Shown here: positions 3,001-61,296 of the stretch, in pieces
Layout of the letters: each line of letters begins with the position of its first letter
Position numbering within the stretch: position 1 is the first letter of the stretch
From: Candidatus Omnitrophota bacterium
Lineage (GTDB): Bacteria > Omnitrophota > Gorgyraeia > Zapsychrales > Fredricksoniimonadaceae
Assembly: GCA_030650275.1 (NCBI GenBank)
Contig: JAUSEK010000015.1
Location: 3,834 to 67,833, forward strand
DNA length: 64,000 bases
Reading direction: 5' to 3'
The notes under the pieces: generated by a model
The model's input: only the letters and a program-made list of their open reading frames with translations
Database searches by the model: none
Told to the model about the DNA's origin: nothing
Position numbers and translations under genes: made by a program

Positions 3001-6000
3001 TCAGCAGTCAACGTCACATCTGTTAATTCCACGAATTCCCCATACAAGCCTCTTTGGATCCAGCCCATGGAGATCCGATGCCGCTTGCTATCAAACCGAT
3101 GTAAATTCTTGCTCAACATCTCATAATGCAGGCGTATGTAATGCTCCACCCTTACTTCTGTCTCGGTGCTGAGCAAATACACAATATGCAGCCTGCGGTA
3201 TTTGTTCATCGCAAGAAGATTAAACATCTCTTCAAAGCCTTCCACCACTCTTTCTTTTTGCGTCCTAGGATCAATGGGCAGATCTTCACTGCCCAAACTC
3301 GTATAACTAAATACCGGCCGCAACCCTTCCCTGATATCCTCTTGCAACAGCCTATGCCGGTCTTTCTTGGGCGCCAAGTCCTCCGGGGCCATCGGCTTAT
3401 GAATCGCTCCCTGACCGCGTTTGACCAATCTATCCGCCATTACCTGATTACCGCTGGCCAACAACACCCACGGGTGACCATATACTTCAGGGTTAGCCGT
3501 AAGAGGAAAATACGCCACTGTCGCTTCTTTGAGCGGTACGAGCATAAAGAACATCTTAGTCAACCACTCAACCAGCCAGTTGCGCTTGATCAAACTCACC
3601 GGTGCAAACACGTTGATCTTCCCTTCCCTGGCCAAGCGCGCGCGTTGTTCTATGCCTTCCTGGAACACCCTAAAAAGATTCTCGGACACTATGCGCACTT
3701 CACTGCCTTCCGGCTCCTGCATGGCCGCCTCATAACCCGGCCTCATGTCTTCTTCTATGTACCGGGCTACGCGGTTGATCCTTTGCTCCTGCATGATCCG
3801 ATAGGATTCCCTCACAGCGCCGCGGATGCCTAACTCCGTCATCTGCTTGAATTTTAAAATGAATCGCACGCCGGCACCGACCCAGTCCGTGCGGGCTTCC
3901 AGCCGATGCTCGTATTGAGCAAACAGATGTTCTTCGTGCAGATTCTGATCGTGGGTGCCGTTGTTGCTTTCGTGAACAAGAGTGTAACTAAAGAAAGAAT
4001 TGTCGTTAATGGCGATCAGAATATACTCTAAACCATTGACCCGGACATGCGCCCCGTAGGCTGTTCCCATGGAACCCGCACGCACACGGCCGGCTTGCAT
4101 TAAGGCGCGCAACTTATCGGCTTTGTCTTTCTGTCCGGCAGCCTGATGATACAACAATACCTTTTGCGCGTCTTCCATCTGCTCATACACCGCCTTCCAA
4201 CCATGTCCGTGGATCGTGTTGCTTTCGATCAAGTGACGCGCTTCCGCTTCCACTTCACCAGCTGTATGGCCGGGACGGGGTTTGGCAGGATCGTTCGTTG
4301 TAGACGGCTGCCAGGTCCAATCGGATCTTTCACGCATTATTCTCTTAAAGTTTTCCGCAATGGTCTGTTCCTGCTCTGCTGTCAACGGCCTCTTTTCTCC
4401 AAAGGCAAACGGCAGGCCGCCCAGGGAATTTGCCCAACCCGCGGCCCCCATCAAGAGGTCCGACTCTTCCAAAAGGTGATAAACTCCACGACCAAACTGC
4501 GGGATGGTCGGCTGGATCGCCATCTCAAAGGTGCCGTCCTCGTGAATGCGCGCCACGATCAATGCCGTAAGACCGTGGCGATACATGTCCAAAATGTCCT
4601 GATGGGCCTTAAAGACGATCGCTTCCAGATCTTTTCCGAGATAAAAAAGCGCTCTGGCCGGCCAGCCGTTCAATTCGCCATAAACCATATCTTGACCGGC
4701 CGCTCCGGTCCGACGGAAGGTGACAAGGCCGGAATCAATGGCTCTCCAGAGCGGATTCCTCATCGGAGCTGAATGAGTATGCCAATGCCCTCCCTGGCTG
4801 GCCCCACCGCCCTGACCATTGGCCCAGGATTCGAACTCTTTACCGCGGGCGGCAGTAAACAACAAAAAGTCGCGCAGTCTATCAGCATCATCAAAAGTCA
4901 GGGCAACTCTGTCCTTGGCCAGCAGCATGATATGTCCCCGGGCCCACTCGCCGATCACCGTCGTTATGAAATATTCATGGCCTGTACCGCCCTTGGCAGG
5001 ACCGATGACCTGAAAATTTCTGCGCACATTAAAATCACACATGGGGCAATCTGTGTCCGGATGAGGAACATTGACCCTCACCCGCGACGCACCGGCATCT
5101 GCGGACTCCAGCGCTCTTATTTTCTGGGCTTCTGCATTTTTAGCCAGCGCTGCGGCTTCATGCGCCGGTGTGGCATAGCGGACCAGGATGCCGGTCGGTG
5201 TGCGGTGAGGATGGAAGACAAGGACCAGCGGAATGCCGTCTTCAGTCCTGATATCAACTTCATTGCTATGATCGAACCGATGGATCATTTCACCATCGGG
5301 GCCCATCTGCTCTGCGGCTGTTTCATAGCCCCTTTGGATCTCCGCGTCGGCAAAACCGACATTGTGTCTGGCGCGGGCCAGATCAATTGATGTCTGACGG
5401 CGATCACTTTCAACCGCGGGCGGCTGCCAATCCCAATCGGAAGCGTTGCGCATCATTTGTTCGAACCGGTCCGCCACGATCCGGCGTTGTGTTCCATCCA
5501 ATTCCTGGGCAGGACCAAAAGCATACGCCACACCACCCGGGATCCGGGAAGATCCGTTGCGGGTGGATATCAATTCCGGACCAAGCGGCTGCTCAAGCAG
5601 GTATGTTACACCGGACATGGCACCCAATTTTCTTGGACCGATCACCAGTTCATAAGTCCCATCATTCAATACACGGGCATTGATGGCGGGGGTGCTATTA
5701 TGATTATATAGATCTCGTAGATCTCTACTTGCAACCTGGACCAATTTTTGGACATTTTTACCTCTGTATATCCTCACTCTCGCCGGCCATCCCTCCATCT
5801 CACCGAACACCACATCGGATCCGAAAAATCCAGGATTCACAATAGTGACCTTACCGCTATCAATGGCCTTCCAAAGCGGAGAACGGAGCGCGGCGGAATG
5901 AAAATGCAGATGCTTGCCTTGTCTGGCGCCGCCCCCTGGGGCATTGGCCCAAGTTTCATGATCGCTGCCGCGTGCCGCGGTAAAGAGCAGCAAATCGCGC

Positions 6001-9000
6001 AATCTATCGGCATCAACGAACACCTGGGTGACTTTATTCTTGGCAACAGCCATGACCATCTCACGGCCATATTCACCGATAACTGTGGAAATAACGTACT
6101 CATACCCCACCGGGCCGACCGCGCGGTCCATGATCTGCCAAGGTTGTTTCGCATCAAAATTACACAACGAACAATCAGTGTCGGAATGGAGCATGTCAAC
6201 CGTTGTTGGTTCAGGCTGCCCATTACCTGCCAATGTCCGGCCCGGCAGGAAGGACAGCACGAACCGGACGCCATTTGTAGAAACAATTTCCACATCAGTG
6301 GAGGCATCATATGGATGGATGTTTGTTCCATCCGCGCCCTCTCTGGCCGCGGCGCGATCATAGCCATTGCGAATTCTCGCGGCAGCAAATCCTATATTAA
6401 CTTCAGCATCAGCCAAACTAATTGATGCCTGGTCTGCTTCCGCTTCCAGCCATCCCCTAGCTTTGTCTTCTCTGATAGTATTAGTTCCATCATCGTAGCC
6501 GAATGCGCTGCCGATCTCATGGGCGAGGCTCAAGACCTGTTCTTCGAGGGTGTTGTAGTTGGTATGGTTGTAGTCGGAATAATGGTCGCTGATGATGAGG
6601 TATTGCTGACCGTTGCGGGTCACAATAGTAGCTAAGAATCCTTTGACAGGGCCGGCACGGACCATGTGGTCTCTGGCCATCTGTCTTAAACGTTCGGCCA
6701 TATGCTGCGCGCCGATGGCTTCCAAGGCCCGGCTGGCTAATCTTACTGCGGCATTATTTTCATCCAGCACAGTGAAGGTATCGATGTTGTGCTGGGCCAT
6801 TTCAAGGTCAACTTCCTCTTGGGTCAACGGCGTTGTACCCGGCAAACCACGGGTCGGGTCATTGCGGGCCCCTCGACCATAAGAACCTTTCAATCCATAA
6901 GAAACATTTTTCAATAAACCAAAGGGTGTCAGAATAATACCTATAAGGACCAACGGCATTAAAGTCAGCAGCCCATGGATAAAGATCAGAAGCCGGTCAA
7001 TGCCTCCGGTCACCCGTTTCCCGTCCGTCACACGGACAGTCGTGCCGCTGACTAAAACCTTGCCCCAGTTTCTAAATTCATTAACCACGATCCCCAACCA
7101 CCCGAACAGGCCGACATCGTACGGCGTGGAACCGGGATTGTAGAATGTTGCCGAATAATACGTGGACAAGAAATACATAAACACCGGCCAGGACAACCAT
7201 TGCGAATCATTGTGATAAAGCCACAAGCCAAGGCCGCTAAATGCCATGCCCAGCAAAGCCGGTGACAGATGCGATCTCTCAAACGTTTCATACGTTGTCG
7301 GCTGCTGTTCATTAACAGCGTCATGAAGAACAAAATAGCGGTGTTCAAGGCCAAGCGTCCTGCCGGATCCCACGTATTTGGCATCGCCTCTCTGGGCCGT
7401 GTCCACGCCCTGCTTGTGGACGGAAACGAAGAACTGGAAGAATGGTGAGGTCATTAGAAGATATGTGACCCATTGATCAAATCCTGGGCTAAGCAGAATA
7501 ATGGCCAGCGGCGTGAAAGCCAGCAAAGAGATGGCCCCGTAATAGTATAGGCCTGATAACACAGCCAACTGGGCCAGGAACGGTACATAATTTCTCATTT
7601 GTATCCTGCCCAAATGAACGACCAGGATCGCAACAGCATAGGTTGCCAGAAGCGTCATCCACAGTGGAGCTGTCCCGAACATCATGACCGCCACCTTGCC
7701 AATAATAAACCACTGCACCGCCAGAGGGACCATTCTTCGTTTCTCGATCGTACCCAAAAGCCCGTGGTCAAAAATGAGCCGTACCAGCCCCGTCAACGTC
7801 GCGGCCTGGGAATAGATGATGCCGACAATGGCCAGCGATATTTCAAGAATGAACGCGGCAAAACCGCTTAAGCCCAGATAGACCAGGAATCCGGCATAAG
7901 AAAGGTTCGAGTTGTGCACGTGCGGCTCTTTGGTGTAGAAGCCGGTGCCGCCGAAGAAGTGCGTCAAATTGCGCAGGCGTCGGGTCACAAGATTGCCATA
8001 GACCGGTGCGTCCCTTAAATTTCTGGCCGGTTCAGAATGATATTGCTGCGCGCCGCCGCCGCCAAACTTGCTGTTCTTGGCCGCAACCCCCATAAGGCTG
8101 ACTTCACGGGCCTTGCCGGCCTTGGTATAGTAAATGAGCCTGACCTGCTTGCCTTTGGCCGTCCATTCATAGCCGGAGGGAATGTCTTCATTGACCACAT
8201 AGGCCTTGGTAATGCGGCCGATCATGTCCGTATAATTGGTGTCCCACCAATCCGGGTGACCATATTGATACCTCTGCTTACCAACCATGTCCTGGCTGGT
8301 TTGGACGACCAGGTTAAAGGTGCGGTCAGCATGCGCGTCAGCGGCGCCTTCGACAGAAATGTGCTCGGTAAAGATAAATTCAGGAAGCCCCACATTGATC
8401 ACATTGTTGTGTCTGAATTCCTGCGAGACATTAGGCGCCAGGAACGCGTCCTCGATGTAAACATCCTGGTTCTCATCCATGCCCTGCATATGCCGAACCC
8501 GGACAAACGGCTGCATGTTGATCTGGTTCGCCGGTTTGCCCTGGAAGGAAACCATCCTACCCGAATATTCCAAACGCATGATCACATGCGTCGGCTGACC
8601 CAAGGCATCGATGTCCCCTGCCCTGAAATAAACGCTGTTGCTGTTGGCGATCTTGTTGACCGTCTCCATATAAACGATTTCCAGATTGGAATAGATCTCA
8701 AACAGGCGAAGATAATGCGCCAGCAATTCCGGTCTGGCGGAAATGCCCTCACGCGGATTTCCAGCAATGCTTTCCCAGACCTGGAAGCCCAACAGCGGCT
8801 GGAATTGGTCTTGCACGCGCTGATGGACCATCGCCTGCCATGCCGCTTCGGAAGCATAGATGCTGCGGTCGTGGTAATTGATCTCAGCCAAAAACGTGAG
8901 GGCCTCTTCATAATGCATGATGCCGCGCACGGTGCGGCCGATGGTCTGGAACCGGGAAGCGGCCCACATCTGCACTTCAAATTTCACCCACGGATGTTGA

Positions 9001-12000
9001 ATGATCAACGGCTGTCCGCGTCTTAAATTCTCCATATTCTCCAAATCCCGCACGATCTGCGGATCCGTGACAAAACCATTGGCGTCCCTGCCGCCCGGAG
9101 CATCGTTATGGCCTCTCATGTTGATGCCTCTGGACAAACGCCGGATCACATTGCGCCACTGGTTCGGGGTCAGATCGATCATGTAAGTCAAATTCGTATG
9201 CCGGCCTTTGTCACGACGAATGTTGAGCTGGTCCAAAAGGAGATCTTCATTGGCATATTTGGGTATTCCCACACCGATGGAAATCTCATCAAAATCCGGC
9301 GCCTGTGGCATATCCATGGTGAGCTGTTCATAGATCGCATATATCCTGCGATAGACATCCGCATCCTTCGGGGCCTTGCTAAGATCGGGCCATTGAATGA
9401 TCACACCGTTGAGCCTGTCATTGCCAAGGCCTTCCCCTTTAATCTTGAATAAATAGGCTGCCAGCTGACCTTCGGACATTTCGTCTCTGATATTCATGCT
9501 TCTCATCTGGGCATTCCACCAGATGGCAAAGGCAATGTCTGTTTGCTGGGGCGTCAAGCGGCCGACGGATCCCGGCAAGACCTTGGTGACGAAATTCCTG
9601 CGCAAAGTGCCGCTGTGCATGGCCAGCCGCACCCTCCACCAAAATGGGAAGATGTGTTTACCGACATAGGCCAGTTTTCCGGCAGCGAGAATGGCCTGGG
9701 CCGCCTGGAACAAAGAATACAGAGACAGGACGTGATAGAAAATGAACGGCAGCCACAAGATCACCTTGGCCATGGTGCCGCCGACGAAATATCCGAGCAC
9801 GAACCAGCTGCCGAACACCAACGCCATCACCGGTAACGGGGCGATCAGGGACACAACGGCCCATGCCACGCCCTTCTTTTGGTCCCAACCAAAATTCTGG
9901 GCGATCTTAACTTTCAGCAGGATATAAACGAAAAAGAAAAGGATGCCATTCGAAGGCGACCGCAGATAACGCAGAAGTCCCGGGAAATCAATGTAGGCAA
10001 AATAGTCAACCGCATTGACCGCATCCAGGACGTAAGGAATGACATAATTGTTCCATTCATAATGAACAAAAGAAACAGCCGCCCAGACGAGGACCATGGT
10101 CAGGGTGTTCCAGAATTGTTTCGGGGCGGGGATGCCTTGGTAGGGCGGGACCGGTTTACCATAAAGTCCTGTACCGGCCGTTTTACTTCTGGGCGCTTGC
10201 CATATGTGTTCGATCACCTTGAAAAGAGCATAAAATCCGCCTAGGACCACGGCGATCTTGACAGCCGGACCCTGGCCGGCATTGTGCCAAATGGCGGCAA
10301 TGAACGTCAACGCCGCGTATTCATAAATCCCGATGTTGGCCAGGGTGGTCTGAATCCAGCCCTTCCAGCTCAAGGCCCCGCCCATCATTTCATTGTAGGT
10401 TTTATAAGGCGTCAGGTGGGCCGGAAAATTATTGCCTTGGGCTATGGTGGTGGCCGGGTCCCAATGAACGCCGCCGTTCCAATAATGAGCCAAATAAGCT
10501 TTGATATAATCAGGCGTCCTGAAAAGGCCTTCCATGTTGTCATGATTGACATATCCGGGCAGATAACCGCCTCTTTGCGGTTGGGACCGCATCCACACCG
10601 ACCATCTCCGGGCTTCGGCTTCGATCGCAGCGCGCACCTGGACCGACCGTCCTTCCGCAACCATGTGGCGAGCCAGGTGGAACAGGAACCATGTGACGTC
10701 GGAGGAAGCGCGCATTTCATCCGCGATCATCAGCACAGCGAAATAAATCCTGAGATCTTCACGGGTAAAGACCATGCCGCTCGCATCAATGCCCATGACC
10801 TCCCTGAGTAACCACAAATACCGTTCAAACAGATCCGGGGAAACCGTGTGGTTCGTCATCACGGCCGGAGCGCTCATCCGCTCACCAAGCGTCTTTCTGA
10901 CCTTCATTTCCATGCCGAAATGTTGGGACGGCGTCAAACCGAAGCTGGGCTCCAACGGCGCACCGGTTGAGATCTGCCGGAATGAAACCCTTCTGCCGGG
11001 ACGGGCCCCTCTGATGCGATTTATATGCTTGGCGAGCCAGCCGAGAAGGAAGGCGGCTGCGGCCGCTGCGACCAGCACTTTAACGAGCGTCAGCAGAACG
11101 GTGCCCTGCTCCTGTAATTCTTTTATCCAGCTGCTGCGCAGATCGGTGCGGACTTTGGGATTTTCTTTCGCCAATTCTCCGTTGATATACCTGTATTGCT
11201 GTTCATGCCAGACCCCCTGGATATTGACGCCCCCCGAAACAGGTTCTTTTTCATAGACCTGGACGGCGGTGGCCATGTCAAAATCGGTCCTGCCGAGATC
11301 GGCATAAGGAAGCGCCAGCGGATTGGGATCACCCTGGTCGGTATGGGCCGTAACCGCATATTCGGAGTGACGATAAATTTTGACCTTGTCCGTTTCTAAG
11401 ATCTGTCCAACATCGGCAGGCGCGGCCTGTTTGAGGACCAGGGCGGAAAAGACCGGGTTCTCAAATTCATTGATATATGTGATCTCATCCTTATAAGGAT
11501 CAATGAGGGCCCCCTGATTGAATACAGCCAGAGGCGTGATAATGTGCAAACCGGCTTCAAGAACTTTGCGCCCGGTGAAAAGATTATAGTAAACGGCCCG
11601 TTTGAACCGGTCGCCACGGACATCATAAGCCAGGAGTTTATTCCCACCGACCTCGGTAGTCCCCCGGAAGACCTCGCGCGTGGGGCCTTCCCCGCTACGG
11701 AACAGTTGAATGTTCTGCGGCATGATGTTGGACGAAGGCAGATCGGTCAAGGACACGATACTGCGCAGGTCCGCCGTAGCACGGTGCATCCACCAGGTAT
11801 TGATGGTCATGTTCCCGGCGGAGGTGATGACGGCCAATGAACGCCCGTTGCTGTCGAAACGACGCAGGACCTGAAACGAAGGCCTGGTCCACACCCCGGC
11901 CATGGTGCCGCCGAGGTTACGGGGCTGGTTCTGGTCACGGATCATGATCAGTGAGGTGTCCGGAGTTATGCCTTCCTGCTCAAGGTCCTTCCATAGGTCC

Positions 12001-15000
12001 CTGCCGGTCAAACCATTGATGGCATTGACCGCCGCCGGAGTGAATATGTCTTTGGCTGCCCGGCTCAAGCGGATGTCACGGCGTTCCACGCCGTTCAAGA
12101 AATCTTTCTTCTCCACGATCTCGTAATTCTTGTTTAAGGTGATGGACTGCGTGACCTCACCGGTGATCGCGTCAAAGTCAAGCGCCACCACGGTCTGGTC
12201 AATATTCCCCATGGCATCGTAATGCACGGTCACGAACCGGCGTTCCTGCACGTCGAATTTCTTCTTGAAATCCCTGAATTCTTTGCCTTCCACGCTGACG
12301 ACCGGGATGCGCTCCATGACCGTCAATGCATTGATCCCGAAACGGGCAAAGGCCCGAACGATCTCGGGGAATTTCATCAAACGCTCATACCCCATCCCGT
12401 CCCTGGCGGCCTCCACATCCACCTCGCCGAGGATCTTGCGGACAGGCATCCACGTCGTATCCCGGCGCTCGGAAACCCGGCGTTCTTGAAGCACATTGTT
12501 TTGGTCATACACACGGTCATCATTTTCAAACCAGTCTATCTGCACCGGGCCTGCCCAGACCTGATCGGCATTGTTCAGCGTCCCGGGCAAACGCATGATC
12601 CCCTTGGTCTCCTGCAGTTTCAAGCCGTCCGGCGTAAAGACCATTCTCACGACTAAGATGAATTCCCCAGGTCTTGCGCCATTAAGCCGAGCATCATCAA
12701 CAATGATCCGGCCGTTGTTTTCACCGATACGGACCACGGAGATCGCGTCCTTGAATTGGACATTACCGACGGTCAGATCCAGTCCTTGGTGGTCTTCATG
12801 CAAATTGTCTAAGTAAATGCGTCTGGGCGTCGTGGCCGCGCGCGCGAAATCACGAACAACCGGCCATTGGGCGGCCGGGACACGAACGCGGATCTCCACG
12901 CCTGGAATATTCAAATAAACGATCGACTGGGTCATGGGTTCGATGCGGCGTATGGGCTTGTCGGCGGTTGCGTCCGGATAAATGTCAATGGTCACCGTGT
13001 CCTGTTGGAAATTCTGGCTGGCAATGACACGATTGCCCTCTGTTACGGTCGGGTCCAAACGCCGCGCCTCCGCCAAGGTCAAGGGCCGATTGTGGCCAAT
13101 GTGAATGGAAAAATCAGCGTAAGGGTATTGACCATCCGCTCTCCTGGTCCCATATAGCGGATAAATGTCCGAGCTTCCGTCGGCATATACCACTTCCCGG
13201 CGGGACGCTTCCTTGTTGGCCGCAAAGTAATAACGCTGCCTGACTTTATAATCCGGGCCAAACACCGTGAAAGTCGTGTACTTGGTGCGCAGGACATCAT
13301 ACGCTGTACTGGCAATCCGGGTGGCCTGCGGCGGGGCAATGACCGGTGCCACGGGAGCGATCGACTGTGCCGTCGTGGGTGCAGAAGATTGTGCCGGCGC
13401 GGTCTGGACTGCCGTAATGCCTAAGTCCCTGATCGCCTGTTGTAAGGCCGCACCTGTAGGTTTGGCCGCACCGCTAAACAACTCACGCAAGGTCCAGAAC
13501 GCCTCCCTGGGCGTGCCGTTGGCATCAATGATCCCCCACCATTCTTCATTGGCAACACCATCGTCCGGTAATCCGGGTAAAGGCAGACCGGTCGTATCCT
13601 GAATATTTAAATTGGCATTCTCATTGGCCTTCCACAATTCATCCCGGCCGCCGCTCATATAGGTGACGCCTAAGAAAATGCTGGGATCAGCCCTGGCCAT
13701 CAGCGTCCGTTGGATGTCGCGCAAGGCACCGGCTTGCATGTTCTGGTCTTCACGCCGGGTCCGTGCGTTATACGAATCCGTCCCAGCTTCAGAGATGTAC
13801 ATCTTCAAATTCTTGTTGATACCCGGAGTATTCAGAATGCCGCGCCACTGATCAATGACGCCGGAATCATCCCTGCCGCGGTACATATTGACGCCCCAGA
13901 CATCCACCGACGGTACCTGACGGACAACGCCAATGGTCGGGATCTCGCCATGGGCCGTGGAAACCCGAATGGCCGGGGCGATCCCCTTGGACTCCCGTGC
14001 CGCCTGCTCCAACATCCTGTACCAGTTGTTGACACTGCCGTTAAACCATTCCGGATGATAGTTGTACTCATTGCCGAATTCAAACATGGCGATCGCCGGA
14101 TGATTCCTGTAGGTGCGGATATAGTCCTTGTAGCGTCCGCCGGAAATATCATATTTATCAGCCGCCGAGATAAAGCGATCATCGAACGACGGGAACCCGA
14201 TGATGGCCTTGATACCGTTCTGGGCCAGGGCATCCAGGAACGCTTTGGAGGTGATCGGATAATAGGTGCGGATGACGGTCATGCCCGCGTACTTCATCCA
14301 TTTGACGTCGTTGATATGACGGTCCCAATTGATGCCGGTCCTGCGGGTTTCCCCTTTGGGGATCGGGCTATAGGTGATACCGCGCAAAGGCATAGCCGCG
14401 TTCACCGTAGGAGCCGGCGGCGTCTGCGCATAAGCAGATAACGGACCAAATATGTCACCAAGAACGCGCCCGATCTGACTTAAAAGATTGAACGGTTGTG
14501 ACTTCGCAGGCGCGGTAATAGGCGCAGGAACAACGACATGCTCTGGATTCCCGACAGAAGCATTCGGGAATGACAAACTGGGCGACATGGCCGGTTGAAC
14601 GGCGGCAGCCGGTCGGGCGGCAGGAGCAGCCGGGGTAGCACCGGAGACCTTGTGCCCGCCCAATAACATGGGATCATATCCAGACACTGCAAAGCTATAA
14701 TAAGTGCCGCTGACTAAGGCCGCATAGGCCCTGGAGGTGATCGTGTCAAATCCGGTACTAACGACGGCAGTATTACCGGCGGCGTCCACCGCATAAGAAG
14801 CTGTCAGTGCACCGCCGTTGGTCTTAAAGAACCCGGCCAGCGACCGTACCAGGCCTTCATACTTGGCCTTATACTCCTGGGATTTGGCTGTGTTGCCGAC
14901 ACTGGAAAATTCCTGAGACACGGCAAGATAACGCAAGGCCAGTTGCGACGACCATTCGATGGAAATGACCTGTTTCCTGTTGCGGTAATCGATGCCAAGC

Positions 15001-18000
15001 AGGGTCGTGCCATTATAAACACCGGCGCGCTGTTCCACCACTTGCAGCATTTGCTCGATCTCAGTCAAACGCTGGGCACGGGTAGCGCCGAAGCGGGCGT
15101 CGTTAAGCATTCTCTCCAGCGGTGACCAGCTGCTGGTATCGCTGGCCCACAGTGATTCCGCGTCTTTCACCCAAGCGCTACCATTCCACACCGCACCTCT
15201 GGAGAAGGTGTGTGTCGCCGGATTATACATGCCCATCACCCAGCCATAGGCCCTATTGCCCGCCTGCAAATATTGATTGTCCCTGGTCGCCTGATACAAC
15301 ATATCGAAGAAGGCCACGGCGCTTTCATTGTTCTCGGTGGACTTGATGTTCCAGTAGAAGTTCCGGTCGCTATTGGGACTGAACTGTCCCCTGGGTCCCA
15401 TGCGGATACCGCCGTCGGTGTCCTGCATGCTGATCAGGAACGCCGCCCGTTCTCTGGCAAAACGCAGGGCCGCCGCGCTGCGTGTACTGTTATAGTTCTG
15501 CACACCGCCCATCCCGATCCACGCATTGGGGCCGGCATGCGCCGAGAAGTCCCAATTTGTATACCACTGACCAACAAAATTGCCGGTACGGATATTATTT
15601 AACACCGCCCCGTTGGGCTGATAATCTCCCGGACGCGGCATGGTCTGCGGATTGCTGGCCCCGTTGGCCGCTGTCAGGTTGCGGGCATAGGCATTGAGTA
15701 TCCTGTTTTGTCCGGCGATCAACAGCAAAGAGGCATCATAGGTATAAATGTTGTTGCTGGTATAAAGGGCCGGATCACCGTAGAAACTGTTGGGCATGCC
15801 TGTTGCCGCGTTGACCCTGCTGGTAAAGAACTGAAGGAATTGACGGCCTGACGCCGCATCAGGTAATGCCGCTGGCAGTTGTGCGGCGGCGACAGGGGTG
15901 GCTTGTCCGCCCGCAGGTGTCGGTGTGGTCACAACCGCAGCAGCAGCCGGTATGGCTGGAACGGCCATGGCACCTGGTATCGGCATGGGGGTCCGCCGCA
16001 CAGGAGCCACGGTACGTGGAGCCGTGGGAAGCATCGGGATCGGACCGACACCGCCAAGATCACGGAAATTAAAGAACTCGAAAGCTCCGGTAACATTGTT
16101 ATAGGCCATGGGATGTGTCTGCCAATACTGGTCCATTCTGTCCCAGATCGCCGGGCTGGATAATTCCTCCGCATCGATCATGGATGCATTCAGCGGACCG
16201 TCCACCAAAAGGACATTAGCTAACACCGGCTTGTATCCCCTGGCTGCCCAAGCCGCATTGTTACGGACCTCGGCGTATTCGATCTCTTCGCTAGGATCGG
16301 GCTGGCCGTTCCCATTGGCATCCCTGTAATACGGATAGCCCTTTGATCTTTCCCGCAAATGGACCTGGGCGAACGGACCGCGCTTGGCCGCCTCCGATAG
16401 ACGCAAGGCGCGCTCGAATTGGCCTTTGATGACAAAGCCGATCACCACTTTATCAGGATCATTCTGTTCACCGGGGTTGGCCATCAATGTGAACATGATC
16501 GGTGTATCATCAGAAGCGGCCCTATATGCGGCCGCGCTGAGATTGTTGACACGAAAATATGTCTCAATGAACGCGTTGAGATCGTTGAGGCCTTCGATCA
16601 GCCCCTGACGGGTCGAGTCAATAATAACGGGATATGGACTGGCCAGGGCAGGCCCGAACAGGGCCGGCGTGTCTTTGGACAAGGTGAGCATTGTATTATT
16701 GTCGCCCAGATCGATCTCCTGTGTCCCTTTAAGGAACTTATGGCGGCCGTCGGCGCCGACGTAAATGGCCGGGGTAGCGGTCTTCAGGTCCGCGGGTTCA
16801 ATGCGGCGGGTCTGGTTAATGATCGCCCCGGCTCCAACCGCAGCTTTCCGGAAAGTTTCTGTGCTGATGCCCGCCGGGACTTTCCCATCGAAGAAAATAC
16901 CCGCGGCCCGGAAATTGTTCTGCAGATACCGATATTTCTCAAATTCTACCACGTGTTTGGCGTATTCGCCGATGGCCCCTGACGGCGTCATCTCAATGAT
17001 GATAGGATAGTCGCTCTTGTAGGCCGGGGCCAATTTTTCCGTGTCTTCGCCCACCACGATCATGATCTTGCCCTCGCCCAACGGAATGCGCACCGAGCCG
17101 TCCGGAGGGTTGAACCAGAATCGGGTGCCGTCGAAGGTGATGTGGTTCCTTTGTACCTTCTGCGGGTCTTTTTTGTAGAGCGCTTCCAGCACCCAGATCA
17201 ACTGGTCGTCTTTGCGGACGCCGCGGCTAAAGACCACCTCATCAAGCCCCGCCGGCTCCCGTCCATCCGTATGTCTGCCCAAAGCATAGGAACGTTCTGT
17301 GAGGGCCAACATGTCGCGGATAAACTCGAAGGAGTAGATGACGATCTCGCCATCCAGGGTCACGTCCGCCAGCGGCCGCAACAGTGGGCCTTTGACGAAG
17401 ATGTGTATTGTGCCGTTGCCTTTGAGGATACTGTCAAAAGGCACGTTGGTGGATAAGAGAAAAGGCAGTAGACGGGCCACGCCCTGGCGCTGGAGAACAC
17501 TCTTGTTCGTGTCAGGGCCCTTGCCCAGCAGACGCATAATGTCCAGATCAACCGAAGCGCGCGGCTGGCCGCTGGTGCTGCTGCCGGCGGAGACGGTCAC
17601 ATCCTTAAATTGGGTGTTCACGTTCACGGTGGCGGCCAGCGGCCCCTGTCTGCCGCGGTCAAGGCCGATGGAAAGGCTCATCCAGTTACGGTCAATGATC
17701 TTGGTGCTGACGCTGTAAGCATAAAATCCTTCATCATATTCCCCGTGGAGATTCACGCGGTACACGGTGGCGTTCAATTCGGTCTTGTTCTTGTTCAGGG
17801 CCTTGTCAAAATTGAATGTCACCAGCCCGCCCTTGGCTTTAATTCCGGCACCGACGGAAGGATATATTTCGGAACGCTTGCCGAAGATCGTGTCATTCTC
17901 TGCCCGGCGGGTCACGCCGGCACGAACCATCAAATTCTTATTGATGTCATGCACAAAGCCCATGTTCTGGAAATTGTATCTGTCATTCACATCCAGAGTG

Positions 18001-21000
18001 ATCTTTTCGGCGGCCACCGGCTGCTGGGACAGGGTGTCGTAGAAGGTCAGCGTATCGTCCTTGCGGTCGCTGCCCTGGGCCATGCCGAGTTCCACAATGA
18101 ACCTGTTGCTACCCGACAGCTGATGTTCATAAATGCCGCTCAAGCCGTAGATCTGACCGTTGTTGCCGCTGTTGAACTTCATGACGCCGGCGACGGTCAA
18201 CTCCACCTTCTGTCCCTGGTAGCCCAGCACGTTCATGATCAGGCCGTATTTCTGGGTCACGGCCTGGACGCTTCCGTCGGGCTGAAGAAGATATTGATTG
18301 GCGTTCACGCCGCCGCCGATAAAGGTATTCAGCACCCGTTCGCCGATGGCGCTGTTGACCCCGCCCAGCCAATACTGGCTTTGCCATTCCTTGTTGACCG
18401 TGGTCAATTTGCCGAAATGGGCGCTCAAGGCATTGTTGACATCGCCGATGGAGAAAGCCGCGTTGCTGAAGTCCTTGCTGATCTCCAGAGTGGATGCCTC
18501 CAGGGCCGGCAGGGTTGTCTTGTGGCCATCCGTCGGTAACGAAGCGCCGGAAGGCAGGTAAACGGCGTCACCCATGACCATGACCCCGGCGCCCGGCGCG
18601 GGATGGTTGAGGAAAAATTCATCCATGGCCTGTCCGACGGCCCCGCGGTCCTGGGCGCTGATCCTGCCCTGGTCCGCCAACGCCGTGATCTTGGCTTTAA
18701 CAGCCCCGGCCTTCGCGGTAAATTCACCGGCCTTGCCCTGTAAGGTCTTGACCGTTTCCTGCGCCTGCGCCAGCAAACTGTTGTATGCCTTGCGCGCGTC
18801 GTTGAGCGCAATATTGTCCCTGATCCTGCTTTGCTGGGCGCGGCCCATGCGCAATGAGTTGTCTATCAAGCCCTGCAGCGGATCGCCCGCGCCCCTGCGG
18901 CGCAGGACATTGTCCAGGGCCTGGGTATAATTTTCTTTCTCAAATTGGGTGACTTGCGCCAAATTGGCCGTGACCTCCGCGGTGTATAATTCTCCCCTGG
19001 CCTTGAGATCGTTGATGCGATTGAGGATATTCAGGCGTTCGGTATAAATAGCCAGTTCCGTATTGATATTGCTCGTCATCAAAGCGGTGATCTCTTCAAA
19101 CGCCGCCCGCGGGGTTTTCTTGCCGAAACGAATGTCCACGCCCAGCGTGCCTTGCAGGTCTATCTCTCTGCGCCAGGGTCCGTTCAAATAATCACGATCG
19201 GTCATCAAGTTAGCGATCAAGCTGGTAACATCGCTTTGACCCTGCGCACTTAAAATACTGGAAGACAGCGCACGGTTAAGGGAATCAATGTCTGTTTTGA
19301 TCTGTTCCAGCCGTTGCGTCACATACCGGTCCGCTTCCTGCAGATTGTGCTCCTGCTCGGGGTTGGTTGAGAAAAATGGCAGTTTGTCGAAATTAGGATT
19401 GTCCAGTGAAGGGATGGACTGCTGCAAAATGGTCCAGATCGCATCGGCATCACCCTTTGCGCCTTTTGCACCATTTACAATTTCTTCTATTTCTGTTCTA
19501 TTTAAATCTCTACTTGGGTTTAAGCGAACCTCTGTTGAAGAAACTTCAATTAAAATACCTCTTTGTATTAATTCGTTTAAGATCTTGGCTCCATTTAAGC
19601 CAACCCCAGAAATCGTTAATTTTTTAATATTCATAGGCAGGGTTATGGCGTCGGCAATGGCTTCTTTAAGTTTCTGCTGGTTGGCTCGCGTCTGGGCGAC
19701 TGTTTTGGCCAGGGCGTCCACGTCCGTTTGCTGGAACAGCGCGCTGTTGGCCCCAAAATACCGGTTGATGTCATCCAAAAGAATATTGGGGTTCTGGGCC
19801 AGCCGGGCTTTGTACTGTTCAATGAGGGCAGGATACTCTTCCGGTTTGGTGCCCGGTTTGGCCTGGGCGCGCACGACATAATTGATCGCCTTCAGGGTCG
19901 GGAAGAAACCGTCTTCGATATTGAGGATCTCGTCCTGGACGGACTTCAAAATGCCGAGCAAGGCGGTATTGAGCTCGGCAAAGCCCTTGCGGCCGCTGGC
20001 TGCTTCGGCGCGGGCCAGGGCGTCGGCGGCTTTGCCAAGGTTCACCCGCACCGCGATCAATCTGTTCCTCACATCCTTGCCGGCGCTTTCCACATCTTTA
20101 AGTTCACCAAGGGCCTTTAAAACATCATTCTTAACTTCCTGCGGGGCCCTAACAAATACAGGGCCGTTGATGAAATCAATGAGGTCCTGCATGGTGGCGG
20201 CATGGACTATGGCCTCGATGGCCTGGGACACCGCCGGCGAAAGCGGAACGTCCACCTCCTGCTTGACCGTCACAGGGATCTTGTTGGTGTAGCTGGTGAT
20301 GCCGTCCCGGCCCAAAATGGCCACGCGCGCGTTGTTTCTCGTCAACTCATCTTCAATGCTCCCCAGGGCCGCGCCGTACTCAACAATGCCATTGGCGCCG
20401 TTTTGATATGTCACCACACTCACCAGACCGGGCTCCACTGCGACCTTGTGCGTGATCGTCTGCCGGTCGCCCGTCGTATAATCAAAGGTGATGTTCAGGT
20501 CTTTTTGGGCATCGCGGGTATATACGGAACGGGCGTTCACTTCGGCAAGTGCCTTGTCATAGATCATGCGCACGATGCCGCCTTCGGTGATGGTCCTCAT
20601 ATAAGGAATGCTGTCGCTCGCCGGGGCCGGGATGAAACGGCCGATCTGGTCTTTGCTGATGCGCACCACGGGGAATCCGGTGGACAGAACGCTGTCATTG
20701 TATTCCTTTTGGGTCAAACGGAATTTCTCGCTCACCGGCATGCGCAGGACGATGTTTTCATCGGCCTTGACCGGTGTTGTTGCCGGTTGTGTGGTGAAAT
20801 CAGCCGTATAACCGCTGAATTCATAAACCTGCTCTCCTGTTGTGTCATCTTTCTTCAAGGTATAAACCGCCATGGTGCCCAGGTCATTGCGCGGATGGTT
20901 CCTGAATTTCAACCAAAAATCCTGTTGGGCCGCGCGCGGAGTATAACTGACAACGCCCAGGGCGATCTGTTTGTCCCCGTCGCTGAAACGCAAAACATGT

Positions 21001-48368: not shown

Positions 48369-48612
48369 GTTGATTCTGTCGTTTTGGCTCATTAGTTTTT
48401 GCTATTTTTTGGATAAAGGATTGTCAATAACTGAAGTATAACACATTATATATAAGCGGCAAATTTTTGCAAAATTTTTTACGCATTTATTTGCTTATAT
48501 TGCAATAGGTTACGTCTTTTCTCCAAAATTTTTTAAATATATTCCAAAACTTTGTTCTTATAAGTAATAAAAATATTAAGAAAGCGTTTTCTTTGTGAGC
48601 ACATGACTTACG

Positions 48613-48851: not shown

Positions 48852-49490
48852 ATGGAATTCAATGAGTTTCTCAAAAAATACCAAAACCTGCCGCTTTTAA
48901 ATACTGATCTCCTTTTGACCGGAGAAACGGATCCCCGCTTATTACGGGTCCAGCTGTCGCGTTGGGTCAAAGCAGGGCATCTCTTTCGATTGAAACGGGG
49001 AGTCTATGCTTTTGCGCCGCACTTTCAAAAAATTCTCCCTTCGCCCTATCTGATCGCTTCAGTCCTGACCCGGCCATCCTATGTGAGCCTGGAAAAAGCC
49101 CTAGAATTCCATGGGCTCATTCCGGAGGCGGTTTTTACGGTCACATGTGTGACCACCAAAAGGCCGGGCCGGTTTGAAACACCGCTGGGGAGGTTCAGCT
49201 ACAATCACGTCCGGCCGCAATTGTTCTGGGGGTATGCTTCAGTCCTGCTTGAGGACCAGTCCGGATCCATGGCCCATCCGGAAAAAGCGCTTCTGGACCT
49301 TATTTATTTAAAGGCGCCGCGACTGACCAAAAATTATCTGGAGGGGCTGCGGCTGCAAAATTTTGAAAAGATCAACGCCGGTAGGCTGCTGGAATACGGC
49401 CGCAGGTTCAAGAAACCGCGCATGCTTCACGCGGCCGGGATGATCATCGCATATATGAAAAAAACGGCATCCACGGAGAAAAAACTATGA
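48852..49490 (+). CDS. abiEi: AbiEi-family antitoxin/transcriptional regulator (type IV toxin-antitoxin), with an N-terminal AbiEi_4-type winged HTH.
   Basis: The 212-aa product MEFNEFLKKYQNLPLLNTDLLLTGETDPRLLRVQLSRWVKAGHLFRLKRGVYAF… matches the AbiEi N-terminal domain pattern. Its stop overlaps the next gene's start by 4 bp (ATGA at 49487-49490), as is usual for AbiE operons. Confidence 0.75.
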   Translation: MEFNEFLKKYQNLPLLNTDLLLTGETDPRLLRVQLSRWVKAGHLFRLKRGVYAFAPHFQKILPSPYLIASVLTRPSYVSLEKALEFHGLIPEAVFTVTCVTTKRPGRFETPLGRFSYNHVRPQLFWGYASVLLEDQSGSMAHPEKALLDLIYLKAPRLTKNYLEGLRLQNFEKINAGRLLEYGRRFKKPRMLHAAGMIIAYMKKTASTEKKL

Positions 49491-51228: not shown

Positions 51229-51250
51229 GGCTATCTCCCGGTAATTGTCA

Positions 51251-51317
51251 TTCCCGAATGCTTCTGTCGGGAATCCAGTGCATTAGTGTCTGGACCCCCG
51301 ACAAATACATTCGGGGG
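51251..51317. repeat. Two related 23-nt hairpin elements in opposite orientation between tadB and tadC: TTCCCGAATGCTTCTGTCGGGAA (51251-51273) and CCCCCGACAAATACATTCGGGGG (51295-51317).
   Basis: Seen directly in the sequence. Each element has 7-bp G/C-rich stems. Together they form a larger imperfect inverted repeat. Confidence 0.45.
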
Positions 51318-51331
51318 TGACAGCGCTAATA

Positions 51332-52186: not shown

Positions 52187-52215
52187 GATACCGCGCTCCT
52201 AAACATGTGTTTTCA

Positions 52216-57673: not shown

Positions 57674-57711
57674 GCTTTCTCCGACTGTACGGGCGACCCG
57701 GCGGGTCGCCC

Positions 57712-58453: not shown

Positions 58454-58466
58454 GAAGTTCTCCCAG

Positions 58467-58655: not shown

Positions 58656-58702
58656 ACGCGCTCCCTACGATTTAGAAACCACTAAGGGACCCCCACCGGG
58701 GG

Positions 58703-59035: not shown

Positions 59036-59065
59036 AGAACATCCTCCTTAAGATACGATTTTATT

Positions 59066-59452: not shown

Positions 59453-59469
59453 TTATGGATGTTGTTTCT

Positions 59470-59724: not shown

Positions 59725-59757
59725 ATAAATGCCTCCTGATGTATTTAAGATGCTTTG

Positions 59758-61295: not shown

Positions 61296-61296
61296 T

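What the first reader, a model, noticed from the sequence alone, without database searches (positions are those of the whole stretch)
13690..14390. Clan GH-A glycoside hydrolase (GH17/GH72-like) domain in the same protein
Carefully translated. It is a TIM-barrel-like segment with the canonical NE(x) acid/base motif and the SE(A)G nucleophile motif at the expected spacing (FEFGNEYNYHP … MYISEAGTD). GH17 and GH72 act on beta-1,3-glucan. That matches the GT48 module and suggests a self-contained glucan synthesis or remodelling machine.
Basis: partly seen in the sequence, partly recalled or inferred. Interest (0 to 1): 0.75.

Follow-up and report, generated by a model that had tools for sequence, protein, structure and literature searches.

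The report
Beta-glucanase domain fused to glucan synthase
A giant membrane protein of an uncultured Omnitrophota bacterium contains an intact sugar-cutting domain, most like beta-1,3-glucan-degrading enzymes, about 1,400 residues before a fungal-type beta-1,3-glucan synthase module; the same pairing recurs in related bacteria, which suggests one protein both makes and trims the polymer.

Summary
On the minus strand, window 13461-14411 encodes a (beta/alpha)8 clan GH-A domain. It lies inside one unbroken reading frame (window 3-48401, at least 16,133 aa). The quoted motifs are there: Asn-Glu (acid/base) follows strand 4 and Ser-Glu (nucleophile) lies in strand 7 of a confident AlphaFold model. 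Both glutamates are invariant across 40 aligned homologues.

The family label needs correcting. The nearest solved relatives are GH158, GH157 (both endo-beta-1,3-glucanases) and GH2 barrels. GH72 and GH17 are detectable but more distant.

Stand-alone homologues (37-46% identity) sit in beta-1,3-glucan (laminarin) degradation loci of Bacteroidota, so the beta-1,3-glucan link holds.

The GT48 module (Pfam 152 bits; FKS1 E 3e-20) is in the same polypeptide. Eight other long GT48-bearing proteins, two from named Omnitrophota MAGs, also carry this GH family, mostly 1.3-2.8 kaa upstream of the GT48 domain, with the catalytic residues kept. Hydropathy places the GH domain outside the membrane, just before the synthase's transmembrane block.

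Best reading: a retaining beta-1,3-glucanase or transglycosylase that processes the synthase's own product. Activity, topology and coupling are inferred, not shown. It is a new variant of known synthase-hydrolase pairings.

The parts
13461..14411 (-). Clan GH-A (beta/alpha)8 glycoside hydrolase domain, GH158-like family (giant-protein aa 11331-11647). The modelled barrel is window 13473-14387.
14067..14072 (-). Asn-Glu (aa 11444-11445): predicted catalytic acid/base Glu with its preceding Asn, directly after strand 4.
   Evidence: Invariant in 40/40 aligned sequences. Aligns on the GNE of GH158(Pro). Position after strand 118-123 in the model. Codons verified.
13788..13790 (-). Glu (aa 11538): predicted catalytic nucleophile in strand 7 (motif YISEAG).
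   Evidence: Invariant. Lies within strand 214-220 of the model. Kept in all 8 GT48-linked homologous domains. It is 93 residues after the acid/base, compared with 86 in GH158(Pro) (PMC13195107).
11793..13253 (-). Conserved spacer of unknown fold between the GH domain and the membrane (aa 11717-12203), preceded by a Pro/Ala-rich linker.
   Evidence: Collinear blastp matches in P0281, P0282, P0289 and P0387. No Pfam or PDB sequence match. AF2 pLDDT 49.7, not interpretable.
11034..11102 (-). Strongly hydrophobic transmembrane helix (aa 12434-12456) followed by KHINRIRGARPGRR. It is the predicted entry from outside into the cytoplasmic part of the synthase module.
   Evidence: Kyte-Doolittle peak 2.56 and flanking charges. 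Equivalent helix followed by a K/R-rich stretch in P0262, P0289, P0387, P0282 and P0256. Topology is inferred.
6933..10346 (-). GT48 beta-1,3-glucan synthase module (aa 12686-13823): about 6 TM segments, a cytoplasmic GT domain (Pfam match at window 7908-9371), then further TM segments.
   Evidence: PF02364 152 bits against a cut-off of 37.2. FKS1 residues 684-1272 aligned at E 3e-20. GT48 motifs conserved. Hydropathy.
23442..24296 (-). Three hydrophobic segments (aa 8036-8054, 8267-8285, 8302-8320) that would carry the chain from the cytoplasm to the outside, upstream of the GH-bearing segment.
   Evidence: Kyte-Doolittle scan. Inference only; the first segment is the weakest.
3..48401 (-). 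The giant reading frame that holds all of the above. It is at least 16,133 aa; the first Met codon is at 48390-48392 and the C-terminus lies beyond the window start. It has an N-terminal Peptidase_C39 domain (window 47541-47774) and a weak DEAD/ResIII-like P-loop (33507-33683).
   Evidence: Stop-free frame. Pfam. Organism is an Omnitrophota MAG, shown by a 100% identical neighbouring TadA-type ATPase.

Best explanation
Window 13461-14411 (minus strand) encodes a catalytically intact, retaining clan GH-A glycoside hydrolase domain. Its family is closest to GH158, GH157 and the GH2 barrel, and its free-standing members belong to beta-1,3-glucan (laminarin) degradation loci. Glu 11445 (NE motif, after strand 4) would act as general acid/base. 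Glu 11538 (SE motif, strand 7) would act as nucleophile in a double-displacement reaction on beta-1,3-glucosidic bonds.

The domain sits in a roughly 4,100-residue extracytoplasmic stretch of an Omnitrophota giant membrane protein. It lies about 800 residues before the transmembrane helix that leads into a GT48 (FKS-type) beta-1,3-glucan synthase module.

Most likely mechanism: the GT48 module polymerises UDP-glucose in the cytoplasm and extrudes beta-1,3-glucan through its membrane channel. The tethered GH domain then cuts, releases, length-limits or transglycosylates that nascent chain on the outer face. This would be a covalently fused synthase-plus-processing-enzyme unit.

Shown: the ORF continuity, the fold, the conserved catalytic residues, the homology relations, the genomic contexts of homologues, and the recurrence of the GH-spacer-TM-GT48 arrangement. 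Inferred: substrate, retaining chemistry, topology and functional coupling.
For: Fold and catalytic residues:
- 192 homologues, best 1e-75, with invariant R59, E122, G124, N125, E126, Y188, S218, E219, G221 and W271.
- The AF2 model (pLDDT 83.7, pTM 0.86) places NE after strand 4 and E219 in strand 7.

Beta-1,3-glucan specificity:
- The family profile's best PDB hit is GH158(Pro), E 5.5e-11, a beta-1,3-glucanase. GH157 scores 1e-6.
- Foldseek's top four hits are GH158 (1.8e-14). LaGH157 with bound laminaribiose has TM 0.65.
- Homologue P0120 lies in a Formosa locus ordered SusD, GH16, a 1152-aa gene, GH17, [homologue], GH30, MFS, GH17. P0114 has the same core.
- P0005 lies among T9SS-secreted GH16 and GH81/CBM6 genes.
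- Formosa laminarin PULs are reported to encode GH16_3, GH17, GH30_1, GH149 and GH158 (bioRxiv 10.64898/2026.01.10.698779). By elimination the homologue is the gene annotated GH158.

Coupling to GT48:
- Same stop-free frame. GT48 is genuine.
- Of 151 GT48-bearing representatives, 8 also contain this GH family (E 1e-94 to 3e-10). Seven have it 1.35-2.8 kaa upstream of GT48, as here. They are collinear, including a shared spacer.
- All 8 keep the catalytic residues. Two are named Omnitrophota.
- 5 of the 16 close GT48 hits with at least 1,500 aa upstream carry it.

Outside location:
- TM parity between two domains expected to be cytoplasmic because they use nucleotide substrates (the DEAD-like match is weak, E about 0.004) fits, as does the K/R-rich flank after TM 12434-12456.
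- In P0262 the GH domain lies between an N-terminal signal anchor and the next TM.

Precedent: yeast Gas1, a clan GH-A GH72 enzyme, co-purifies with Fks1 (PMC12715860).
Against: - No enzymology. Substrate is inferred from distant homology (19-22% identity to GH158 structures) and from gene neighbourhoods of 40%-identical stand-alone proteins.
- The pairing is not universal. Two Omnitrophota giant ORFs and one Planctomycetia-labelled contig with GT48 show no such GH within 10 kb upstream. About two thirds of long GT48 proteins lack it.
- The window's GH domain is closer to stand-alone proteins (40-47%) than to other GT48-linked copies (18-36%). Its nearest relative lies on a phage-like contig. 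The domain may therefore be a recent acquisition rather than an old partner of the synthase.
- Topology rests on a crude hydropathy scan. For P0289, P0387, P0282 and P0342 the same scan gives an ambiguous answer.
- Published work reads GH domains in Omnitrophota giant proteins as prey-wall-degrading (bioRxiv 10.1101/2023.11.21.568195).
- Whether the giant polypeptide stays intact or is cleaved (it has an N-terminal C39 peptidase) is unknown.
Confidence: 0.55

Rival explanations
1. Offensive or foraging glucanase. The domain is one of the hydrolytic 'warheads' of a predatory Omnitrophota giant surface protein. It degrades beta-1,3-glucans of other organisms (algal laminarin, curdlan-type exopolysaccharides, periplasmic beta-glucans, eukaryotic walls). 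Its position near GT48 is incidental.
For: - The giant gene has the published hallmarks: an N-terminal C39 domain, a helicase-like P-loop, many TM segments, and an adjacent Tad/T2SS locus. These proteins are proposed to digest prey walls.
- All characterised or context-annotated relatives are catabolic laminarinases.
- The domain's closest relatives are stand-alone enzymes, not other GT48-linked copies.
- Several GT48 giant ORFs lack it.
Against: - This GH family occurs in 8 of 151 GT48-bearing representatives, mostly at a conserved distance and order, with a shared spacer. That is hard to explain if the pairing were incidental.
- P0289 is a complete 4,461-aa GH+GT48 protein in a housekeeping neighbourhood with no secretion or predation genes nearby.
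- From general knowledge, the bacterial and archaeal prey described for Omnitrophota do not have beta-1,3-glucan walls.
Confidence: 0.2
2. The domain is a GH72/GH17-type beta-1,3-glucanosyltransferase that elongates, branches or cyclises the glucan rather than hydrolysing it, as fungal Gas/Gel proteins or the GH17 domain of proteobacterial NdvB do.
For: - 36 of 40 family members give Pfam Glyco_hydro_72 hits, best 1.5e-8.
- The family profile hits Gel4 (GH72) at 2e-4 and a GH17 glucanase at 1.6e-3.
- Gas1 co-purifies with Fks1.
- Retaining clan GH-A enzymes can transglycosylate (general knowledge).
Against: - GH158, GH2 and GH157 score better in every comparison.
- The window segment has no Pfam GH72 or GH17 hit at E<=10.
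- Only 1 of 40 members touches Pfam GH17.
- The stand-alone relatives sit in degradative loci.
- Sequence cannot distinguish hydrolase from transferase.
Confidence: 0.15
3. A GH2-like exo-glycosidase barrel (beta-galactosidase, beta-glucuronidase or beta-mannosidase type) acting on a non-glucan substrate.
For: - Pfam GH2_C is the commonest hit among family members (38/40, best 8e-13).
- Databases name the homologues 'GH2 TIM barrel-domain containing'.
- NCBIfam gives sub-threshold GalA and beta-glucuronidase hits.
Against: - No GH2 N-terminal sugar-binding or Ig-like domains are found upstream, and none fit in the 310-340-aa stand-alone homologues.
- All hits are far below the curated cut-offs.
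- LaGH157, a proven beta-1,3-glucanase, carries the same 'GH2 catalytic domain' label in the PDB.
- Homologues' gene neighbourhoods are laminarin loci.
Confidence: 0.07
4. A catalytically dead or purely glycan-binding barrel that serves as a structural or adhesion module.
For: Giant surface proteins often carry degenerate domains. No activity data exist for this family.
Against: Every residue expected for clan GH-A catalysis is retained: Arg on strand 2, Asn-Glu after strand 4, His on strand 5, Tyr after strand 6, Glu on strand 7 and Trp near strand 8.
Confidence: 0.03

Closest known systems
CAZy family GH158 (BuGH158 from the Bacteroides uniformis beta(1,3)-glucan utilisation locus, PDB 6PAL; GH158(Pro), PDB 9ORO/9P25)
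   Same: Retaining clan GH-A (beta/alpha)8 barrel. The GNE acid/base motif aligns. It is the best sequence-profile hit (5.5e-11) and the top Foldseek hit (1.8e-14). The spacing between the two glutamates is similar (93 residues here, 86 in GH158(Pro)). Stand-alone homologues occupy the slot that laminarin PUL papers label GH158.
   Different: Identity to the solved members is only 14-22%, and HMMER aligns only strands 2-6. Both solved GH158 enzymes carry a C-terminal Ig-like domain (PMC13195107). That domain is absent from the 310-340-aa homologues and is not recognisable after the barrel here. This copy is embedded in a protein of more than 16,000 aa instead of being a secreted PUL enzyme.
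GH157 endo-beta-1,3-glucanase LaGH157 (PDB 9FZ9/9G5G) and GH2 catalytic barrels
   Different: 16-17% identity. LaGH157 is 527 aa with extra domains. GH2 enzymes need N-terminal sugar-binding and Ig-like domains that are absent here.
Fungal Fks1 (GT48) working with Gas/Gel GH72 glucanosyltransferases; also the S. pombe Bgs3-Ghs2 synthase-remodeler module (PMC13612389)
   Same: A GT48 beta-1,3-glucan synthase is partnered with an extracellular clan GH-A (or GH16) enzyme that acts on the nascent glucan. Gas1 co-purifies with Fks1 (PMC12715860). The GT48 module here aligns with FKS1 residues 684-1272 and appears to keep about six TM segments before the GT domain.
   Different: In fungi the partners are separate proteins, and the GH is GH72 or GH16 and GPI-anchored. 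Here the two are in one bacterial polypeptide, the GH is GH158-like, and there is no sign of Rho1-type regulation.
Bacterial exopolysaccharide synthases with a dedicated hydrolase: BcsA/BcsZ (GT2 + GH8, cellulose), and NdvB of Pseudomonas/Bradyrhizobium (a GH17 domain fused to GT2 for cyclic beta-1,3-glucan). Recalled from general knowledge, not tested here.
   Same: Same logic: a processive membrane synthase plus a periplasmic glycosidase or transglycosylase specific for the same polymer. In NdvB the two are fused in one chain.
   Different: Those synthases are GT2, not GT48. The hydrolases belong to GH8 or GH17. The proteins are 10-20 times smaller.
Omnitrophota giant proteins ('Archaeovorins'; West-Roberts et al. 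2023 bioRxiv 10.1101/2023.11.21.568195; 2026 preprint 10.64898/2026.06.07.730766)
   Same: Host phylum. N-terminal C39 peptidase, helicase-like P-loop, many TM segments, glycosyl hydrolase and transferase content, and a neighbouring Tad/T2SS locus.
   Different: Neither paper's main text mentions GT48/PF02364 or a beta-1,3-glucanase domain. The published reading is prey-wall degradation, not synthesis and processing of the cell's own glucan.

Membership tests
Clan GH-A | (beta/alpha)8 TIM-barrel fold | tested here: met
Clan GH-A | Acid/base Glu preceded by Asn at the C-terminal end of strand 4, and nucleophile Glu at the end of strand 7 | tested here: met
   N125-E126 directly follow strand 118-123. 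E219 lies in strand 214-220. Both are invariant in 40 sequences.
Clan GH-A | Retaining double-displacement mechanism | not testable with these tools
   Inferred from the clan. The carboxylate distance in the model could not be measured because coordinates are not exposed.
GH158 | Significant sequence similarity to GH158 members (CAZy/dbCAN assignment) | tested here: inconclusive
   Best PDB profile hit is GH158(Pro) at 5.5e-11, but it covers only profile positions 67-201. BuGH158 scores 1.5e-6. The single sequence scores 0.0085. dbCAN was not available. By elimination, the Formosa PUL homologue matches the 'GH158' slot.
GH158 | Barrel followed by an eight-stranded Ig-like domain, as in both solved structures | tested here: not met
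   Stand-alone homologues end 10-20 residues after the barrel. In the window the barrel is followed by a Pro/Ala-rich linker. The next region gave no match and a poor model. This is a feature of the solved members, not a formal CAZy criterion.
GH158 | Endo-beta-1,3-glucanase activity | not testable with these tools
   Supported only by the gene neighbourhoods of homologues.
GH72 | Match to Pfam Glyco_hydro_72 (PF03198) at family level | tested here: not met
   No hit for the window segment even at E<=10. Homologues give weak hits (36/40, best 1.5e-8). PDB Gel4 scores 2e-4.
GH17 | Match to Pfam Glyco_hydro_17 (PF00332) | tested here: not met
   No hit for the window segment. 1 of 40 homologues hits at 0.014. 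PDB GH17 scores 1.6e-3.
GH2 | N-terminal sugar-binding and Ig-like domains preceding the TIM barrel, with a family-level Pfam or NCBIfam score | tested here: not met
   The 500 aa upstream have no Pfam match. GH2_C scores E 0.03 for the window segment. NCBIfam hits reach 15-37 bits against cut-offs of 544-1284.
GT48 (partner module in the same protein) | Pfam Glucan_synthase above its cut-off and alignment to the FKS1 GT domain with its motifs | tested here: met
   152 bits against a cut-off of 37.2. FKS1 residues 684-1272 at E 3e-20. NQD..Y.E(D/E), YGHPD and NEDI motifs conserved.
Omnitrophota giant protein (Archaeovorin type) | Omnitrophota host, N-terminal C39 peptidase, SecA/DEAD-like domain, many TM segments, T2SS/Tad neighbours | tested here: met
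   Neighbouring ATPase is 100% identical to an Omnitrophota MAG protein. C39 at E 1e-7. TM segments. T2SSF x2 and T2SSE. The DEAD/ResIII match is only weak (E 0.0035-0.005). Full length is unknown because the ORF leaves the window.

The most novel reading that the evidence does not exclude
Omnitrophota, and possibly neighbouring PVC lineages, possess a bacterial GT48 beta-1,3-glucan synthase that is covalently fused, across the membrane, to its own GH158-like glucanase or transglycosylase. This would be a single-chain 'make and trim' glucan machine. It exists both as 2-5-kaa proteins in housekeeping contexts and grafted into giant proteins of more than 16 kaa. If so, these ultra-small bacteria build a callose/curdlan-like coat or tether with a eukaryote-type synthase. 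The fungal Fks1-Gas1 partnership would then have a fused prokaryotic counterpart, which bears on the origin of FKS/callose synthases.
Probability: 0.35. Interest if true: 0.75.

Novelty: new variant of a known kind. Interest (0 to 1): 0.55.

Why it matters
GT48 glucan synthases are treated in the literature searched here as eukaryotic enzymes: fungal Fks (the echinocandin target) and plant callose synthases. No paper in the searchable library mentions them in Omnitrophota.

This finding supplies the second half of a possible pathway. An intact, apparently extracytoplasmic beta-1,3-glucanase-type domain is tethered to such a synthase, and the arrangement recurs across divergent long proteins.

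It gives a concrete, testable function for one roughly 2,500-residue stretch of an otherwise unannotated giant protein. Pfam recognises only four domain types in 16,133 aa.

It offers an alternative to the prevailing view that every hydrolase in these giants is a weapon against prey.

It points to a compact 2,315-aa natural version (P0262) that would be far easier to express and image than the giant.

It also adds a deep-branching, non-PUL branch to a family otherwise known from marine and gut laminarin degradation.

Tried and rejected
- Reading the window as eukaryotic with introns. Many short plus-strand ORFs suggested this. Rejected: they are antisense shadows of one 48-kb minus-strand frame.
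- Pfam on 4,500-aa and 1,000-aa chunks found nothing at the GH domain. Only the isolated segment gave weak GH31 and GH2_C hits. The GH31 hit (7e-4) is not supported by any structure or profile comparison, so I disregard it.
- Exact look-up of the window's ATPase and of P0087 found no record.
- The genome scan with the GT48 alignment returned only 3 loci, none with the GH domain within 10 kb. This first suggested the pairing was unique. The exhaustive representative search overturned that.
- The metagenome scan for close relatives of the GH domain found only 23-29% identical stand-alone proteins. No sister copy was available for a selection analysis.
- The spacer between the GH domain and the membrane gave no Pfam hit, no PDB hit, and an AF2 model at pLDDT 49.7, too poor for a fold search.
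- The afdb50 fold library was not available.
- NCBIfam has no model for the family.
- The hydropathy topology of P0289, P0387, P0282 and P0342 is ambiguous because of an internal signal-peptide-like segment. I did not use them as support.
- The neighbour-joining tree of GH domains is too crude to decide between ancient linkage and repeated acquisition.
Full report
**1. What is at the coordinates**

The quoted peptides are real but lie on the minus strand. FEFGNE begins at window 14084 and ISEAGT at 13796. The plus-strand ORFs listed for the region are antisense shadows.

On the minus strand a single frame is free of stop codons from window 48401 down to base 3. It spans 16,133 codons and runs off the window, so the C-terminus is missing. 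I number residues from the top of that frame: aa i ends at window 48401-3(i-1).

The protein is Ala/Gly-rich and almost free of cysteine (0.1%). Pfam recognises very little of it:
- Peptidase_C39 at aa 210-287
- one TPR repeat
- a weak DEAD/ResIII P-loop near aa 4907-4965
- Glucan_synthase (GT48) at aa 13011-13498, 152 bits against a cut-off of 37.2

**2. Is the GH-like segment more than chance?**

Yes. The NE and SE dipeptides alone would mean little. However, the 331-aa segment (window 13452-14444) finds 192 database proteins at E<=1e-3, the best at 1e-75 and 46% identity.

In an alignment of 40 of them the following are invariant: R59, E122, G124, N125, E126, Y188, S218, E219, G221, D268 and W271. 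H165 is nearly invariant.

AlphaFold2 with that alignment gives a confident model (pLDDT 83.7, pTM 0.86) with eight strands:
- Strand 4 is residues 118-123 (IAMFEF), followed at once by G-N125-E126.
- Strand 7 is residues 214-220 (KMYISEA) and contains E219.
- Arg59 ends strand 2, His165 ends strand 5, and Tyr188 follows strand 6.

This is the standard clan GH-A constellation, from general knowledge of the clan.

The family HMM envelope is aa 11331-11647, which is window 13461-14411.

**3. Which family?**

The isolated segment reaches no Pfam gathering threshold. Its best hits are GH31 at 7e-4 and GH2_C at 0.03.

A profile of the 40 sequences searched against all PDB sequences ranks as follows:

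| Target | E-value |
|---|---|
| GH158(Pro) | 5.5e-11 |
| GH2 beta-glucuronidases/galacturonidases | 3e-9 to 1e-6 |
| LaGH157 | 1e-6 |
| BuGH158 | 1.5e-6 |
| GH72 Gel4 | 2e-4 |
| a GH17 glucanase | 1.6e-3 |

Scanning each family member against Pfam gives GH2_C in 38/40 (best 8e-13), GH72 in 36/40 (best 1.5e-8) and GH17 in 1/40. NCBIfam has no model for the group.

GH72 is a real but distant relative. The closest characterised families are GH158 and GH157, both retaining endo-beta-1,3-glucanases (PMC13195107), together with the GH2 barrel.

In GH158(Pro) the catalytic residues are Glu143 and Glu229, 86 residues apart. Here the two glutamates are 93 residues apart, and the GNE motifs align.

**4. 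Substrate inference from relatives**

The stand-alone homologues are 310-430-aa proteins, mostly from Bacteroidota, and several have T9SS sorting tails. Three independent neighbourhoods were read:
- P0120 (uncultured Formosa): SusD, GH16, a 1,152-aa gene, GH17, [homologue], GH30, MFS transporter, GH17.
- P0114: the same core.
- P0005: among T9SS-secreted GH16, GH81/CBM6 and further GH16 genes.

All three are beta-1,3-glucan-degrading sets. A recent preprint lists the CAZymes of the Formosa agariphila laminarin PUL as GH16_3, GH17, GH30_1, GH149 and GH158. By elimination, the 334-aa homologue is the gene annotated GH158. The 1,152-aa gene fits GH149 by size, from my own knowledge. This is an inference, not a dbCAN result.

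The closest relative of all, P0001 (46% identity), lies on a contig with a terminase and an M15 peptidase, which looks phage-like.

**5. Organism and locus**

The TadA/CpaF-type ATPase at window 61822-63978 is 100% identical to a protein of a 'Candidatus Omnitrophota bacterium' MAG. The next hits, at 68-99% identity, are also Omnitrophota.

Upstream of the giant gene lie:
- an AbiEi/AbiEii toxin-antitoxin pair
- two T2SSF genes
- two large unannotated proteins, one of them Cys-rich
- the ATPase

This matches published descriptions of Omnitrophota giant genes: an N-terminal C39 domain, SecA/DEAD-like domains, many TM segments, and neighbouring secretion or pilus genes. Neither of those papers' texts mentions GT48/PF02364 or a beta-1,3-glucanase. 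No paper in the library links GT48 to Omnitrophota.

**6. Is the GH-GT48 pairing meaningful?**

The GT48 module is genuine. It aligns with S. cerevisiae FKS1 residues 684-1272 (E 3e-20) and carries the conserved motifs.

A pattern-based genome scan found three related loci, none with the GH domain within 10 kb. An exhaustive HMMER search of 1.84 billion representatives then found 570 GT48 relatives. The closest are long proteins of 1-7.9 kaa.

Searching the 151 retrieved sequences with the GH family profile found eight that carry both domains (E 1e-94 to 3e-10): P0262, P0289, P0281, P0352, P0387, P0342, P0256 and P0282. In seven of them the GH lies 1,350-2,800 residues upstream of GT48. In the window the gap is about 1,370-1,680 residues.

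Further points:
- blastp shows collinearity, including a shared spacer at aa 11717-12203.
- All eight keep Arg(strand 2), Asn/Arg-Glu, Asn186, Tyr188, Glu219 and Gly221.
- P0281 and P0256 are named Omnitrophota proteins.
- Among the 45 closest GT48 hits, 5 of the 16 with at least 1,500 residues upstream carry the GH.
- P0289 is a complete 4,461-aa gene flanked by FUR, rubrerythrin and ribonucleotide reductase genes. The pair therefore also exists outside giant 'predation' loci.

The representatives are clustered at 50% identity, so these are separate lineages. For a family this rare, eight co-occurrences are far above expectation. This is a qualitative argument; I did not compute a formal statistic.

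The pairing is recurrent but not universal. The window's copy is closer to stand-alone proteins (40-47%) than to the other fused copies (18-36%). A rough NJ tree scatters the fused copies. Ancient linkage and repeated capture both remain possible.

**7. Topology (inferred)**

A Kyte-Doolittle scan finds:
- hydrophobic segments at aa 8036-54, 8267-85 and 8302-20
- nothing convincing until aa 12434-56 (peak 2.56), which is followed by KHINRIRGARPGRR
- a 230-residue soluble stretch
- about six segments between aa 12686 and 12900
- the GT domain, then further segments

FKS1 has its GT domain between TM6 and TM7 (PMC12715860). The helicase-like region and the GT domain are both expected to be cytoplasmic because they would use nucleotide substrates, although the helicase-like match is weak (E about 0.004). 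Given that, the parity and the positive-inside rule place aa 8321-12433, including the GH domain, outside the membrane.

In P0262 the GH domain lies between an N-terminal signal anchor and the next TM, which is again followed by a K/R-rich stretch. For four other proteins the crude scan is ambiguous.

**8. Mechanism**

Best-supported reading (confidence about 0.55): the GT48 module makes beta-1,3-glucan from UDP-glucose and extrudes it, and the tethered GH158-like domain then cleaves or transglycosylates the emerging chain using Glu11445 as acid/base and Glu11538 as nucleophile. This could serve release, length control or remodelling.

The logic resembles three known systems:
- BcsA/BcsZ (general knowledge)
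- the GH17-GT2 fusion NdvB (general knowledge)
- Fks1 with Gas1, which co-purify

Rival readings:
- an outward-directed glucanase for prey or foraging (0.2)
- a GH2-like exo-glycosidase (0.07)
- an inert binding module (0.03)

**9. Verdict**

The clan, the catalytic residues, the beta-1,3-glucan theme and the fusion to GT48 all stand. The family label should read GH158-like rather than GH17/GH72. The 'machine' remains a well-motivated hypothesis.

The domain itself is a new member of a known kind. The recurrent single-chain pairing with a bacterial GT48 synthase is a new variant of known synthase-hydrolase partnerships.

Noticed in passing
window 3-48401 (-): A single stop-free frame of 16,133 codons runs off the window start. 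Cysteine content is only 0.1%. Pfam recognises only C39, one TPR repeat, a weak DEAD/ResIII P-loop and GT48. More than 90% of the protein has no annotation.
   Followed up: partly
window 6933-10346 (-): A bacterial GT48 (FKS-type) beta-1,3-glucan synthase module with about 6 TM segments before the GT domain, as in yeast Fks1. Exhaustive search finds 570 representatives, and the closest are long bacterial proteins of 1-7.9 kaa. No paper in the searchable library mentions GT48 in Omnitrophota.
   Followed up: partly
window 11793-13253 (-): A beta-rich spacer (aa 11717-12203) between the GH domain and the membrane is conserved in four other GH+GT48 proteins. It has no Pfam or PDB match, and the AF2 model is only pLDDT 49.7. 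Function unknown.
   Followed up: partly
window 48852-50290 (+): An AbiEi antitoxin / AbiEii nucleotidyltransferase toxin pair (type IV TA system; AbiEii E 7e-27) is wedged between the giant gene's start and the Tad/T2SS genes, on the opposite strand.
   Followed up: partly
window 50308-63978 (-): A Tad/T2SS-like cluster directly upstream of the giant gene: two T2SSF (TadB/C-like) genes, a ParA-fused T2SSE/CpaF ATPase, and an HTH_32 protein.
   Followed up: partly
window 52544-55642 (-) and 55887-57344 (-): Two large proteins (1,032 and 485 aa) inside the pilus cluster have no Pfam match. The first starts with a pilin-like hydrophobic segment and looks conspicuously cysteine-rich by eye (not counted), in contrast to the nearly Cys-free giant.
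   Followed up: no
L001 2680-3669 (JGI Ga0393276_0000185): The closest relative of the window's GH domain (P0001, 46% identity, 329 aa) sits on a 27-kb contig with a Terminase_6N gene and an M15 peptidase. That looks like a phage or prophage and hints at mobile spread of this glucanase family.
   Followed up: no
L018 8001-21386 (Logan SRR24460359_35055): P0289 is a complete 4,461-aa protein with the same GH-spacer-GT48 order. It lies in a housekeeping neighbourhood (FUR, rubrerythrin, ribonucleotide reductase) rather than next to secretion genes.
   Followed up: partly
P0289 aa 455-481, P0387 aa 458-476, P0282 aa 372-390: Internal segments look like Sec signal peptides (for example WKKWVVAAAVFVGLALPSLASA) about 400 residues into proteins that already start with a signal anchor. 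They make simple topology counting ambiguous.
   Followed up: no
L006-L011, L013 (metagenome contigs): A second, more distant stand-alone branch of the family (about 456 aa, 27-29% identity, motifs GNEQNY / ITEFGIDA / DEWWK / NEEWWGII) occurs on low-GC (32-40%) contigs, except the short fragment L013 at 52% GC. Its context was not examined.
   Followed up: no
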